From IMG/VR virus record IMGVR_UViG_3300025924_000033: 50,279 bases of DNA; one strand, 5' to 3'. Positions 42,473 to 43,897 of the stretch are shown in pieces. The notes beneath the pieces were generated by a model, which had not been told where the DNA came from, made no database searches, and saw only the letters and a program-made list of their open reading frames with translations. This stretch comes from a virus. Made by a program: the position numbers and the translations under genes. Numbering within the stretch: the stretch's first letter is position 1; each line of letters starts with the position of its first letter.

Positions 42473-43897
42473 ATGAAAATCGGTTCACAAGCCTTCGGCA
42501 CCTTCTCATTCCCGACGGACTACGACGTCGAGAAAACGGCAACACTCAACAAGACGGACCTGACTGGCGGGAACAACAAGTACTACCAGATCGAGGCGCA
42601 CGTCTCGAAGGACAAGAAGAAGTACAGGCTCTACTCCCGCTACGGACGCGTCGGGCACACCGGCACCGAAGAAGAGCGCATCCCGCCTCAGGACCTGAAC
42701 TCGCTGCTGGCTGCCTTCGAAAGCCTCAAGGCTGAGAAGACCGGCTCGAGGAAGGGCTACGTCGAGGTGCAGATGGCCTCGACCAAGATGGGCTCTTCGG
42801 TGAACAATCAACGCATCCTCTCGGACGACATCAAGAAGGACAAGCTCAAGTCGGACGACGGCAAGGATGCGCCGAAGGACAACATCTCGCCGCACATAGC
42901 GAAACTGGTGAACCGCCTGTTCGAGGAGGCAGGGCAGGCGGTTCGTAGTTCTCTCTCCGGCTCGCTGCAGACCACGGCGGAGAATCCCCTCGGTACTCTG
43001 ACCCTGACGCAAATCAATCAGGGGAAGAACGTACTGCAGGAGATTCAGGACCTGCTGACGAAGAAGCCCAAGCTCATCGACAGTATCAACTCCGATGTGC
43101 TCCTGCTCTCGAACAAGCTCTACTCCGCGATCCCGCAGGTCATGGAGCACCGCCCGAAGAAGTCCGACGGCGACAAGGCGATGGACGAGTGGCTGAAGAA
43201 GATGGCCCTCAACAACGCCGACAAGCTGGACAAGCAGACGGAGCTCCTCGATCTGCTCGCGGACGTCCAGGGCATGGTGGGAGGCTTTGCCACCACCGAC
43301 GTGGCCAAAAAGCACAAGGAGATCGGCTGCGAGTATACGCTCGTCGACGAGAAGGACGACTCCTTCCGCAAGGTCAAGGAGTACTACTCCTCGAGCCACT
43401 CTCGCCACCACGGCTGGAAGAGCAACATGGTCCGACTGTGGCGGGTCTCAGTGAAGGGCCAGAAGGACAAGCATGTCCCCTTCATGAAGGACGTTGGCAA
43501 CATTAGGCCTCTGTTTCACGGCTCAGGTCCGCAGAATATCCTGGGCATCTGCAAGCACGGATTGCTGATGCGACCGCCTGGCGTCTACGTCACCGGCTCG
43601 ATGTTCGGCAACGGTCTGTACTTCGCTGACCAGAGCTCCAAGAGCGAGCAGTACGCGTTCGGACGCTATGGTGGCGGCAGTGGTCGCGGTGATACATTCT
43701 TCATGTTCGTCGCGGACGTCGCCCTCGGAAAGATCAGGAAGTACCAGACGCCGCAATCGCATCTTCAGGAGGCACCGAAGGGCTACCATTCGGTGCAGGG
43801 TGAGGCCGGCAGCAGCCTCATTCACAACGAATTCATCGTCTACAACCTGAAGCAACACGTGCTGCAATACCTCATCGAATTCACAACGAGGTACTAA
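42473..43897 (+). CDS. poly/mono(ADP-ribose) polymerase (PARP family) with N-terminal WGR domain, helical regulatory region and H-Y-E catalytic domain (474 aa)
   Basis: WGR: NKYYQIEAHVSKDKKKYRLYSRYGRVGHTGT; catalytic LFHGSGPQNILGICKHGL (His-Gly-Ser), GLYFADQSSKSEQY (Tyr), HNEFIVYN (Glu). Confidence 0.75.
   Translation: MKIGSQAFGTFSFPTDYDVEKTATLNKTDLTGGNNKYYQIEAHVSKDKKKYRLYSRYGRVGHTGTEEERIPPQDLNSLLAAFESLKAEKTGSRKGYVEVQMASTKMGSSVNNQRILSDDIKKDKLKSDDGKDAPKDNISPHIAKLVNRLFEEAGQAVRSSLSGSLQTTAENPLGTLTLTQINQGKNVLQEIQDLLTKKPKLIDSINSDVLLLSNKLYSAIPQVMEHRPKKSDGDKAMDEWLKKMALNNADKLDKQTELLDLLADVQGMVGGFATTDVAKKHKEIGCEYTLVDEKDDSFRKVKEYYSSSHSRHHGWKSNMVRLWRVSVKGQKDKHVPFMKDVGNIRPLFHGSGPQNILGICKHGLLMRPPGVYVTGSMFGNGLYFADQSSKSEQYAFGRYGGGSGRGDTFFMFVADVALGKIRKYQTPQSHLQEAPKGYHSVQGEAGSSLIHNEFIVYNLKQHVLQYLIEFTTRY

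What the first reader, a model, noticed from the sequence alone, without database searches (positions are those of the whole stretch)
42473..43897. Catalytically complete WGR-PARP in a phage-like genome
The ORF has a WGR domain (KYYQIEAHVSKDKKKYRLYSRYGRVGHTGT), a helical regulatory region and a PARP catalytic domain with all three H-Y-E elements (LFHGS, GLYFAD, HNEFIVYN), predicting poly- or mono-ADP-ribosyltransferase activity. PARPs are rare in bacteria and rarer in phages. Here it is followed directly by a cupin and a LOG/SLOG-like Rossmann protein (translationally coupled by ATGA overlaps), which may process ADP-ribose or nucleotide derivatives.
Basis: partly seen in the sequence, partly recalled or inferred. 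Interest (0 to 1): 0.7.

Follow-up and report, generated by a model that had tools for sequence, protein, structure and literature searches.

The report
Jumbo-phage PARP with macrodomain eraser
This is a real, intact PARP-type ADP-ribosyltransferase gene in an uncultivated ~210-kb phage, sitting beside an ADP-ribose-removing macrodomain gene; phage PARPs have been annotated before, but I found no experimental study of one, so it is a good test case rather than a new kind of system.

Summary
The ORF 42473-43897 (+, 474 aa) is real. It is a complete WGR / helical-regulatory / catalytic PARP, and the H349-Y383-E453 triad is invariant across more than 120 metagenomic homologues. Selection on it is strongly purifying.

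It belongs to a clade of uncultivated jumbo phages, on contigs up to 243 kb. These phages carry rIIA/rIIB directly upstream, a tRNA array and a tmRNA.

The third gene is not LOG/SLOG. It is a compact macrodomain of the NCBIfam A1S_2505 family. Its best structural match is DarG, and its invariant Asn22 and Lys60 align with the active-site residues of the phage anti-DarT2 factor AdfM. Only two of the three gene junctions are ATGA overlaps.

In relatives, PARP is followed by one or two of these macrodomains, and in one case also by a NADAR. This fits either a writer-eraser pair or independent anti-DarTG counter-defence genes.

Phage PARPs are rare (16 of 50,697 phage records) but are already annotated and discussed in the literature. 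This is therefore a new member of a known kind.

In passing: a 931-aa major-vault-protein homologue lies 6.8 kb upstream.

The parts
42473..43897 (+). PARP gene, 474 aa: WGR, helical regulatory domain and ART catalytic domain
   Evidence: ORF. Pfam WGR, PARP_reg and PARP. phrog_23333 at 1.9e-36. PDB PARP1 at 4e-35. 317 homologues. 57 synonymous versus 7 non-synonymous codon differences against L001.
42539..42772 (+). WGR domain (aa 23-100); the motif reads Y57-G58-R59
   Evidence: Pfam PF05406, 54 bits against a cut-off of 22. Y57, G58, R59, V60 and G61 are invariant in alignment A3.
42887..43270 (+). Helical regulatory (HD / PARP_reg) domain, aa 139-266
   Evidence: Pfam PF02877, 42.6 bits against a cut-off of 26.8. 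Aligned with the PARP1 HD.
43361..43882 (+). ART catalytic domain, aa 297-470. Codons: H349 at 43517-43519, Y383 at 43619-43621, E453 at 43829-43831. H451 sits at the position of PARP1 Y986. The segment before the catalytic Glu is about 28 aa shorter than in PARP1.
   Evidence: Pfam PF00644, 115 bits. PDB alignment. Invariant columns H349, G350, S351, Y383, F384, S391, Y394, H451, E453. Codons read.
43899..44318 (+). 139-aa metal-type cupin; starts 1 nt after the PARP stop
44315..44710 (+). 131-aa compact macrodomain of the A1S_2505 family, resembling DarG2, TARG1 and AdfM; ATGA overlaps at both ends
38940..41021 (+). rIIA homologue (context; upstream in the same co-directional block)
   Evidence: phrog_612 at 3.7e-96. 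Conserved upstream of PARP in most clade loci.
41034..42173 (+). rIIB homologue (context)
   Evidence: phrog_609 at 2.1e-60. Pfam Phage_T4_rIIB, precomputed. Synteny.
42197..42469 (+). 90-aa ORF of unknown function; ends 3 nt before the PARP start
   Evidence: ORF. No family hit. Conserved only in the closest relatives.
44707..45468 (+). 253-aa ORF of unknown function; ATGA-coupled to the macrodomain gene
   Evidence: ORF and junction. No significant family hit. Found downstream of PARP or the macrodomain at 27-47% identity in many clade loci.

Best explanation
**What it is.** The ORF encodes a functional PARP-family ADP-ribosyltransferase with the minimal DNA-damage-sensor architecture: WGR, then the autoinhibitory helical domain, then an H-Y-E catalytic domain. 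This matches PARP2/3 and bacterial PARPs, without the zinc fingers or BRCT of PARP1. It is carried by an uncultivated jumbo phage of about 210 kb and is conserved across a whole clade of such phages.

**Gene context.** It lies in a tightly packed co-directional block: rIIA, rIIB, orf90, PARP, cupin, macrodomain, orf253.

**Inferred mechanism, by analogy with PARP1-3.**
1. During infection the WGR domain binds DNA breaks or 5'-phosphorylated ends. These could come from host-chromosome degradation, nuclease attack on phage DNA, or replication and recombination intermediates.
2. Binding releases helical-domain autoinhibition and admits NAD+.
3. The enzyme ADP-ribosylates itself and nearby proteins or DNA ends, as mono-ADP-ribose or short chains.

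**The neighbouring macrodomain.** The DarG2/TARG1/AdfM-like protein is an ADP-ribose hydrolase. It may reset or limit these marks, or it may strip host DarT-type ADP-ribose from phage DNA.

**Shown here:** domain architecture, catalytic residues, conservation, purifying selection, phage origin, macrodomain and cupin folds, and neighbourhood frequencies.

**Inferred, not shown:** DNA-break activation, the targets, mono versus poly activity, and any functional coupling to the macrodomain.
For: **PARP identity and integrity**
- Pfam WGR, PARP_reg and PARP are all above their cut-offs.
- There is a full-length alignment to human PARP1 WGR-HD-CAT (E 4e-35) and to PARP2 (E 2e-30).
- The NAD+-pocket residues H349, G350, S351, Y383, F384, S391, Y394 and E453 are invariant in a 44-sequence alignment spanning 58-87% identity. 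They are at least 95% conserved in 121 sequences.
- Against the relative L001, 57 codon differences are synonymous and 7 non-synonymous.

**Phage origin**
- rIIA and rIIB are present, with 14 tRNAs and a tmRNA.
- Homologues sit on contigs up to 243 kb, including IMG/VR viral contigs.
- No relative above 37% identity was found in the one scan of 185,579 GTDB species genomes; that scan used two short conserved peptide patterns.

**Operon-like packing**
- Junctions are 1-23 nt gaps or 4-nt overlaps.
- No plus-strand terminator or promoter pattern lies between 35 and 47 kb.

**ADP-ribose erasers nearby**
- An A1S_2505 macrodomain lies within 2.6 kb downstream of PARP in 8 of 13 non-redundant clade loci with enough flank.
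- Tandem duplicates occur in L005, L006 and L027. In L005 a NADAR follows PARP directly.
- The same macrodomain type is fused to ART-containing polyvalent proteins in crAss-like phages.
Against: - No biochemical data exist for any phage PARP in the literature I could search.
- The W of the WGR motif is Tyr, so DNA-end binding could differ from PARP1-3.
- H-Y-E does not guarantee polymer synthesis; PARP3 and PARP4 have the triad but are mono-transferases (established knowledge).
- The catalytic domain lacks about 28 residues that PARP1 has before the catalytic Glu.
- The macrodomain link is not universal:
  - It is absent within 2.6 kb in 5 of 13 clade loci.
  - No recognisable eraser lies next to PARP in the cultured phages RAS14, Xoo-sp13 and FBKp34.
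  - The A1S_2505 family occurs in 459 cultured phage records, almost all of which lack a PARP.
- Conserved synteny among related phages could explain the co-location without any functional coupling.
Confidence: 0.6

Rival explanations
1. The PARP and its neighbours are functionally independent. The macrodomain, and the NADAR in relatives, are orphan-antitoxin counter-defence enzymes. They strip host DarT2 (thymine) and DarT1 (guanine) ADP-ribose from phage DNA, like AdfM and AdfN. The PARP is a separate host-takeover or anti-defence ART, used like T4 Alt/ModA/ModB or AcrIF11. Co-location only reflects an early-gene or anti-defence island next to rIIA/rIIB.
For: - The best structural match of the macrodomain is DarG. 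Its invariant N22 and K60 align with the AdfM active site.
- AdfM is an experimentally shown anti-DarTG2 macrodomain of jumbo phages (PMC13309987). AdfN NADARs are shown anti-DarTG1 factors (PMC11825919).
- The A1S_2505 family is in 459 cultured phage records that mostly lack a PARP.
- 5 of 13 clade loci lack the macrodomain near PARP.
- The cupin and macrodomain segment is a local recombination patch. It is 66-89% nucleotide identity, with a 154-160-nt indel, inside flanks that are 99-100% identical. This is typical of fast-evolving counter-defence cassettes.
Against: - The macrodomain is ATGA-coupled within the same block as PARP.
- Erasers of two different folds (macrodomain and NADAR) cluster immediately after PARP in relatives.
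- This macrodomain type is fused to ART domains in other phages.
- TARG1-type macrodomains also remove protein-linked ADP-ribose (established knowledge), so the two roles are not exclusive.
Confidence: 0.4
2. The enzyme's physiological substrate is nucleic acid rather than protein. It ADP-ribosylates terminal phosphates at DNA or RNA breaks, as PARP1-3 can do in vitro. This would cap or mark ends, for example protecting phage ends from host exonucleases or marking host DNA. The macrodomain would then reverse that nucleic-acid mark.
For: - The architecture is the WGR-HD-CAT type shared with PARP2/3.
- The neighbour most resembles DNA-ADP-ribose hydrolases: DarG, and more weakly SCO6735 and TARG1. 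SCO6735 cleaves thymidine-linked DNA ADP-ribose (PMC9411070, title and abstract listing).
- The genome is rich in end-processing enzymes: an ATP-dependent ligase-like ORF and a LigD 3'-phosphoesterase plus ligase-OB ORF.
- Relatives carry RtcB, DNA ligase and RNA ligase near PARP.
Against: This rests purely on analogy. Nothing in the sequence discriminates protein from nucleic-acid acceptors, and DNA-end modification by PARP1-3 is so far mainly an in vitro activity (established knowledge).
Confidence: 0.15
3. The gene is an inactive or decaying remnant, or a bacterial gene captured in a mis-binned contig, and not a working phage enzyme.
For: Nothing positive. It was considered only because PARPs are rare in phages.
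Against: - The catalytic and NAD+-pocket residues are invariant across the clade.
- The synonymous to non-synonymous ratio is 57:7.
- The same synteny with rIIA/rIIB holds across dozens of independent metagenomes.
- The one GTDB scan found no relative above 37% identity.
- The neighbours are phage hallmark genes and a tRNA array.
Confidence: 0.02

Closest known systems
Eukaryotic DNA-damage PARPs (PARP1, PARP2, PARP3; the WGR-HD-ART core)
   Same: - Same three-domain order.
- H-Y-E triad and nicotinamide-pocket residues are present.
- The donor-side loop 'RPPGVYVTGSMFG' has the same length and shares several residues with PARP1's 'APPEAPVTGYMFG'.
- Best PDB matches are PARP1 (E 4e-35) and PARP2 (E 2e-30).
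   Different: - No zinc fingers, BRCT, or PARP2/3 N-terminal region; only 22 residues precede the WGR domain.
- The WGR motif reads YGR.
- About 28 residues are missing between the 'KGxHSVxG' strand and the catalytic 'NEF', so this region is short, as in tankyrase and PARP4, which align contiguously.
- An invariant His451 sits where PARP1 has Tyr986. The PARP1 Y986H variant makes short, hyperbranched PAR (PMC11594298, PMC7544232).
- About 25-30% identity.
Annotated phage PARPs (phrog_23333): Klebsiella phage vB_KpM_FBKp34 gp111, Xanthomonas phages Xoo-sp13 and XacN1, Stenotrophomonas phages RAS14 and CM1, Cellulophaga phages phi4:1 and phi17:2
   Same: - Phage-encoded PARP-family ARTs. FBKp34 gp111 is annotated as WGR + regulatory + catalytic.
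- Found mostly in large or jumbo phages.
- Noted by Iyer et al. 2021 and 2022.
   Different: - Only 23-29% identical where more than half of the query aligns; 32-36% over shorter catalytic-domain matches.
- No megablast match to the window's 30-50 kb.
- Those phages have no recognisable macrodomain, NADAR or cupin next to the PARP.
- The present clade is known only from metagenomes and keeps the rIIA/rIIB-PARP synteny.
Bacterial PARPs (Herpetosiphon aurantiacus, Clostridioides difficile type)
   Same: WGR, a helical region and a catalytic domain with a conserved Glu, about 400-480 aa (review PMC8120803). Many relatives of 410-480 aa at 30-37% identity exist in the representative library.
   Different: - I did not compare sequences with the characterised bacterial enzymes directly.
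- The nearest GTDB genome hits are Abditibacteriota at 26-37% identity.
- Bacterial PARPs are typically discussed alongside PARG; here the neighbour is a TARG1/DarG-type mini-macrodomain.
AdfM (PhiKZ gp104), the DarG2 macrodomain and TARG1/OARD1, compared with the downstream 131-aa gene
   Same: - A stand-alone 'orphan' phage protein, like AdfM.
- Invariant Asn22 and Lys60 align to AdfM Asn23 and Lys78, equivalent to DarG2 N22 and K80.
- The 'IGCGLAG' loop resembles 'RIGCGLAGG' of SCO6735 and the corresponding loop of TARG1 (the TARG1 loop sequence is recalled from memory).
- One phage homologue is annotated as O-acetyl-ADP-ribose deacetylase 1.
   Different: - Shorter: about 110-aa core against about 150 aa.
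- No Pfam Macro hit.
- The hhalign match to AdfM is weak (E 8.5e-4, probability 24%), so it is a distinct family (NCBIfam A1S_2505, phrog_2072).
- No DarT-binding domain.
- Activity is untested.

Membership tests
PARP family, DNA-damage-type core (WGR-HD-ART; ARTD/PARP1-3-like) | ART catalytic fold with the H-Y-E triad and nicotinamide pocket | tested here: met
   PF00644 at 115 bits against a cut-off of 26.7. H349, Y383 and E453 align with PARP1 H862, Y896 and E988. They are invariant in the clade.
PARP family, DNA-damage-type core (WGR-HD-ART; ARTD/PARP1-3-like) | Helical regulatory (PARP_reg / HD) domain N-terminal to the ART domain | tested here: met
   PF02877 at 42.6 bits against a cut-off of 26.8, residues 139-266. 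Aligned to the PARP1 HD.
PARP family, DNA-damage-type core (WGR-HD-ART; ARTD/PARP1-3-like) | WGR domain | tested here: met
   PF05406 at 54 bits against a cut-off of 22, residues 23-100. The eponymous Trp is an invariant Tyr57; Gly58 and Arg59 are invariant.
PARP family, DNA-damage-type core (WGR-HD-ART; ARTD/PARP1-3-like) | DNA-break-dependent activation and NAD+-dependent auto-modification | not testable with these tools
   Needs an enzyme assay with and without nicked or 5'-phosphorylated DNA.
PARP family, DNA-damage-type core (WGR-HD-ART; ARTD/PARP1-3-like) | Synthesis of poly(ADP-ribose) chains, as opposed to mono-ADP-ribose | not testable with these tools
   H-Y-E is present but not sufficient. 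The region before the catalytic Glu is short, and H451 sits at the PARP1 Y986 position.
PARP1 orthologue | N-terminal zinc fingers and BRCT domain | tested here: not met
   Only 22 residues precede the WGR domain. No other Pfam domains were found.
Phage PARP/PART family (phrog_23333) | Full-length match to the PHROG profile | tested here: met
   E 1.9e-36, residues 32-470 on profile positions 15-382 of 383.
Macrodomain, DarG2/TARG1/AdfM-like (downstream gene 44315-44710) | Macrodomain fold | tested here: met
   [not shown]
Macrodomain, DarG2/TARG1/AdfM-like (downstream gene 44315-44710) | Catalytic Asn and Lys (DarG2 N22/K80; AdfM N23/K78) | tested here: met
   N22 and K60 are invariant in 52 sequences and align to AdfM N23 and K78. 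Caveat: the hhalign E-value is only 8.5e-4 and the probability 24%. The catalytic-residue assignments come from PMC13309987.
Macrodomain, DarG2/TARG1/AdfM-like (downstream gene 44315-44710) | Sequence membership in Pfam Macro (PF01661) | tested here: not met
   No Pfam hit at E <= 0.01. It belongs instead to NCBIfam NF049995, A1S_2505.
Macrodomain, DarG2/TARG1/AdfM-like (downstream gene 44315-44710) | ADP-ribose hydrolase activity on DNA- or protein-linked ADP-ribose | not testable with these tools
   Needs a hydrolysis assay.
   [not shown]
Cupin superfamily (43899-44318) | Double-stranded beta-helix fold with a His/Glu metal site | tested here: met
   [not shown]
PARP-PARG type writer-eraser operon | Obligate co-occurrence of the eraser with the PARP | tested here: inconclusive
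   The macrodomain lies within 2.6 kb downstream in 8 of 13 non-redundant clade loci. It is absent in 5, and absent next to PARP in three cultured phages.

The most novel reading that the evidence does not exclude
The PARP may work together with the phage's 931-aa major-vault-protein homologue (32837-35632, same strand, 6.8 kb upstream). That would be a viral counterpart of the eukaryotic vault pairing of MVP with vPARP/PARP4: a PARP associated with, or modifying, a vault-like shell inside the infected bacterium.

The same proximity recurs independently in the 462-kb uncultured phage LR756500. There a PARP-catalytic protein and an MVP-like protein share one co-directional block with RNA ligase, an HD-kinase and an AAA ATPase.

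Against this, only 2 of about 26 MVP-like phage loci have a PARP within 10 kb. PARP-clade relatives L065 and L067 have no MVP-like gene within 10 kb.
Probability: 0.08. Interest if true: 0.85.

Novelty: new member of a known kind. Interest (0 to 1): 0.45.

Why it matters
In the literature I could search, no phage PARP has been characterised biochemically, and reviews call evidence for prokaryotic PARP activity scarce (PMC8120803).

This clade offers a compact, highly conserved WGR-HD-ART enzyme of 474 aa. It has candidate erasers next to it: a macrodomain, a NADAR in relatives, and a cupin of unknown role.

It could therefore show three things. What a DNA-break-sensor PARP does in a bacterial cell during infection. 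Whether reversible ADP-ribosylation of the eukaryotic DNA-damage type operates in phage-host conflicts. How PARP allostery works in a minimal natural scaffold.

It also bears on the proposal that eukaryotic PARPs descend from conflict-system versions in bacteria and phages (PMC7824862). If instead the neighbours are anti-DarTG factors, the locus marks a counter-defence island beside rIIA/rIIB in an abundant uncultured jumbo-phage lineage.

Tried and rejected
- **SLOG/LOG identity for 44315-44710.** Rejected by the fold search.
- **Defence-system membership.** PADLOC gave no hits for PARP, the cupin, the macrodomain, orf90 or orf253.
- **NCBIfam.** No model hits the PARP.
- **Close cultured relative.** There is no megablast match of 30-50 kb in 50,697 phage records.
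- **Prophage or bacterial origin.** The GTDB scan found only 26-37% identical Abditibacteriota and Prevotella MAG hits.
- **A recognisable ADP-ribose eraser next to PARP in loci without the A1S macrodomain, and in cultured PARP phages.** Pfam on 20 neighbouring proteins gave nothing relevant.
- **Profile search of the macrodomain family against PDB sequences.** Only sub-significant hits (E 0.2-0.8) to SCO6735 and TARG1. These are useful only together with the fold result.
- **General MVP-PARP linkage.** I tested it on 28 IMG/VR MVP-like loci plus two GenBank huge phages. It held in only 2 lineages, so I did not adopt it as the main explanation.
- **PurZ (Z-DNA) reading of 29562-30929.** The PHROG label says '2-aminooxy adenylosuccinate synthetase'. 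The nearest phage homologues are the PurA-like genes of cluster-C-type mycobacteriophages at 34-38% identity, and Pfam says only Adenylsucc_synt. This is left open.
- **Fold search of the cupin against afdb50.** The library was unavailable.
- **Promoter and terminator scan.** It gave nothing informative on the plus strand.
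Full report
**1. Observation**

The ORF listing returns an ATG-initiated ORF at exactly 42473..43897 on the + strand, 474 aa. An AAGGGG Shine-Dalgarno-like element lies about 7 nt upstream.

Pfam gives three hits, all above the curated thresholds:
- WGR, residues 23-100, 54 bits.
- PARP_reg, residues 139-266, 42.6 bits.
- PARP catalytic, residues 297-446, 115 bits.

The PHROG profile phrog_23333 matches end to end (E 1.9e-36).

phmmer against the PDB aligns residues 22-470 to the human PARP1 WGR-HD-CAT fragment (E 4e-35) and to PARP2 (E 2e-30). 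H349, Y383 and E453 fall on PARP1 H862, Y896 and E988. The core observation is confirmed.

Two side statements need correction.
- The PARP stop (TAA, ending at 43897) and the next ATG (43899) are separated by one base. This is not an ATGA overlap. The two following junctions (44315-44318 and 44707-44710) are ATGA overlaps.
- The third gene is not LOG/SLOG (section 4).

**2. Is it functional, and whose is it?**

The search for homologous proteins returned 317 relatives. The best 120 are 58-99% identical, all 466-491 aa apart from one 424-aa partial sequence, and all but that one carry the same three Pfam domains. They come from JGI, ENA, NCBI and Logan assemblies on contigs up to 243 kb.

In a 44-sequence alignment, the triad and the whole nicotinamide pocket are invariant: H349, G350, S351, Y383, F384, S391, Y394 and E453. 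So is Y57-G58-R59 of the WGR motif. In 121 sequences they are at least 95% conserved.

Against a 99%-identical relative (L001), the gene has 67 nucleotide differences. Of the changed codons, 57 are synonymous and only 7 non-synonymous. This indicates strong purifying selection.

The genome is a phage.
- rIIA (phrog_612, 3.7e-96) and rIIB (phrog_609, 2.1e-60) lie immediately upstream.
- The window holds 14 tRNAs and a tmRNA (124.7 bits in Rfam).
- The same locus lies on a 210-kb IMG/VR viral contig.
- A single pattern-based scan of one genome per GTDB species found nothing closer than 26-37% identity, in Abditibacteriota and Prevotella MAGs.
- No cultured phage is similar at the DNA level.

**3. 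How rare, how new**

tblastn finds a PARP relative in 16 of 50,697 phage records. Matches covering more than half of the query are at most 29% identical. They are Stenotrophomonas CM1 and RAS14, Xanthomonas Xoo-sp13 and XacN1, Klebsiella FBKp34, KP13-16 and 05F01, Cellulophaga phi4:1 and phi17:2, and two huge uncultured phages.

Several are already annotated as poly(ADP-ribose) polymerase. FBKp34 gp111 is explicitly annotated as WGR + regulatory + catalytic.

Iyer et al. noted PARPs in a few jumbo phages. They listed PART/PARP among the most frequent viral ART families (PMC7824862 and PMC9503650).

In a library of 1.84 billion 50%-identity representatives there are 3,957 relatives. This clade collapses to about three full-length representatives (63, 47 and 45% identity; a few fragments also score high). 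Beyond them lie many proteins of 410-480 aa at 30-37% identity that align along the whole query.

I found no experimental work on a phage PARP. The verdict is a new member of a known kind: a previously undescribed, abundant, uncultured clade.

**4. The neighbours**

*Gene 43899-44318 (139 aa).*
- It hits phrog_4786.
- It models confidently (pLDDT 91.6) as an all-beta protein.
- H44, H46, E61 and H89 are invariant, as expected for a metal-binding cupin. Its substrate is unknown.

*Gene 44315-44710 (131 aa).*
- It is an NCBIfam 'A1S_2505 family phage non-structural protein' (E 1.2e-45) with no Pfam hit.
- The family's invariant Asn22 ('FGSN') and Lys60 ('IPTK') align with N23 and K78 of PhiKZ gp104. 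The alignment is weak: hhalign E 8.5e-4, probability 24%.
- PhiKZ gp104 is AdfM, a phage macrodomain shown to remove DarT2-made ADP-ribose from DNA. N23 and K78 are its proposed active-site residues, equivalent to DarG2 N22 and K80 (PMC13309987).
- The 'IGCGLAG' loop resembles the corresponding loops of SCO6735 and TARG1 (sub-significant on its own).

The family is widespread. It has more than 4,500 clusters and occurs in 459 cultured phage records, one of which is annotated as OARD1. It also occurs as a domain of ART-containing polyvalent proteins in crAss-like phages.

**5. Is the neighbourhood conserved?**

I collected 53 PARP loci and searched them with tblastn and HMMs.
- rIIA and rIIB precede PARP in most clade members.
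- An A1S macrodomain lies within 2.6 kb downstream in 8 of 13 non-redundant loci with enough flank.
- L005, L006 and L027 have two tandem copies.
- In L005 a NADAR gene overlaps the PARP stop.
- YpsA/SLOG genes lie 0.3-1.3 kb upstream in L005 and L006.
- The cupin is sometimes upstream and sometimes downstream.
- Five clade loci lack the macrodomain nearby. In three cultured PARP phages, and in the macro-less loci, Pfam found no eraser among 20 neighbouring proteins.

Between this window and its 99%-identical relative, the cupin and macrodomain segment is a divergence patch. Nucleotide identity falls to 66-89%, with a 154-160-nt indel. The protein identities are 86% (cupin) and 75% (macrodomain). 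The flanks are 99-100% identical. This looks like a recombinational cassette exchange.

**6. Mechanism**

*Shown:*
- an intact, selected WGR-HD-ART enzyme in a phage;
- a macrodomain hydrolase candidate and a cupin in the same tightly packed co-directional block;
- no plus-strand terminator or promoter pattern between 35 and 47 kb (weak evidence).

*Inferred from PARP1-3 biology:*
- The WGR domain binds DNA breaks. This unfolds the helical domain, which admits NAD+. The enzyme then modifies itself and nearby proteins or DNA ends.
- Plausible activators in an infected cell are host-DNA degradation products, nuclease-cut phage DNA, and replication or packaging ends.
- The genome encodes end-processing enzymes: a ligase-like ORF and a LigD-phosphoesterase plus ligase-OB ORF.

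Mono versus poly cannot be decided. H-Y-E is necessary but not sufficient. The enzyme lacks about 28 residues that PARP1 has before the catalytic Glu, which resembles tankyrase and PARP4. It also has an invariant His at the PARP1 Y986 position, and PARP1 Y986H makes short, hyperbranched PAR (PMC11594298 and PMC7544232).

**7. Rivals**

The strongest rival is that the macrodomain (and the NADAR) are orphan-antitoxin counter-defence enzymes against DarTG2 and DarTG1. AdfM and AdfN are both shown experimentally. Under this reading they merely share an early or anti-defence island with an independent PARP.
- In favour: the family's wide distribution without a PARP, the incomplete linkage, and the cassette-like divergence.
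- Against: translational coupling, the clustering of two eraser folds directly after PARP, and fusion of this macrodomain type to ARTs elsewhere.

The two roles are not exclusive. A nucleic-acid-substrate version is possible but untested. A pseudogene or contamination explanation is excluded by the conservation data.

**8. In passing**

The 931-aa ORF at 32837-35632 is a major-vault-protein homologue.
- Pfam MVP_shoulder hits at 1.4e-23 and Vault_3 weakly.
- Its only PDB hits are eukaryotic MVPs, at E 3e-16.

Viral MVPs have been reported once, in gut phages, in a text that does not mention any phage PARP (bioRxiv 10.1101/2023.11.10.566534). Eukaryotic vaults contain PARP4, so I tested for linkage.
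- A PARP lies within 10 kb of an MVP-like gene only in this lineage and in the 462-kb phage LR756500.
- In LR756500 the PARP, an ATP-grasp protein, an AAA ATPase, an RNA ligase, an HD-kinase, DFP and the MVP-like gene are co-directional.
- That is 2 of about 26 MVP-like phage loci.
- PARP-clade relatives L065 and L067 have no MVP-like gene within 10 kb, and in L066 it is fragmented.

This is an intriguing lead, not a finding.

**9. Verdict**

The PARP call is correct and robust. The 'SLOG' call is wrong, but its replacement, a DarG/TARG1-like macrodomain, strengthens the ADP-ribose theme. Novelty is moderate: this is a new clade of an already annotated but uncharacterised kind. Interest: 0.45.

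Noticed in passing
window 32837-35632 (+): A 931-aa homologue of the eukaryotic major vault protein. Pfam MVP_shoulder hits at 1.4e-23 plus weak Vault_3, and the only PDB hits are MVPs (E 3e-16). It lies 6.8 kb upstream of the PARP on the same strand. MVP-like and PARP genes are also neighbours in the 462-kb phage LR756500, but in only 2 of about 26 MVP-like phage loci. Viral MVPs were reported once, in a text that does not mention any phage PARP (bioRxiv 10.1101/2023.11.10.566534)..
   Followed up: partly
window 21662-22022 (+); 45966-50226 (-): A phage-encoded tmRNA (Rfam 124.7 bits; tag peptide ANDNVRVQSNLSAPLQAAA) and an array of 14 tRNA genes on the minus strand. ARAGORN gives unusual anticodon calls for some: two tRNA-Leu(aag) and a tRNA-Tyr(ata)..
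   Followed up: partly
window 29562-30929 (+): An adenylosuccinate-synthetase homologue. It hits phrog_1211, labelled PurZ-type '2-aminooxy adenylosuccinate synthetase' (3.8e-67). Its nearest cultured homologues are the PurA-like genes of large mycobacteriophages (34-38% identity), and relative L006 also has one near its PARP. Whether this phage makes 2-aminoadenine DNA is open..
   Followed up: partly
window 43400-44700 versus L001 10930-12390: A local divergence patch covering the PARP 3' end (mostly synonymous changes), the cupin and the macrodomain. Nucleotide identity is 66-89%, with a 154-160-nt indel between the cupin and the macrodomain, inside flanks that are 99-100% identical. This looks like a recombinational cassette swap between related phages..
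   Followed up: yes
L005/L065 (JACCDR012707390.1) 11434-12801; L006 7452-8280; L027 7900-8786: In relatives the PARP is followed by a NADAR gene and/or two tandem A1S_2505 macrodomain paralogues. It is preceded by a YpsA (SLOG) gene. A GGDEF gene lies 4 kb downstream in L065..
   Followed up: partly
window 30926-32359 (-); 10458-11951 (+); 27271-28344 (+); 46462-46797 (-): Other cargo: a LigD 3'-phosphoesterase plus ligase-OB protein, an ATP-dependent DNA-ligase-like protein, a DnaJ-domain/protein-kinase fusion, and a PTH2-type peptidyl-tRNA hydrolase. ThyX (36869-37825) and a SpoU methylase (35733-36272) are also present..
   Followed up: no
L004 (SRR2177950 contig) 385-5970: In a 68%-identical PARP relative the upstream genes are RtcB, an ATP-dependent DNA ligase, a receiver-domain protein, an AcrVA2-like protein and a sigma70_r4 protein. 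An RNA ligase lies downstream. PARP sits here among repair and anti-defence genes rather than next to rIIA/rIIB..
   Followed up: no
BFVD hits A0A7M1RZQ7, A0A7M1RUN7, A0A6J5QNL6: The A1S_2505-type mini-macrodomain also occurs as a domain inside polyvalent proteins of more than 1,100 aa in crAss-like and other uncultured phages. One of these is annotated as an ART-PolyVal-like domain-containing protein..
   Followed up: no
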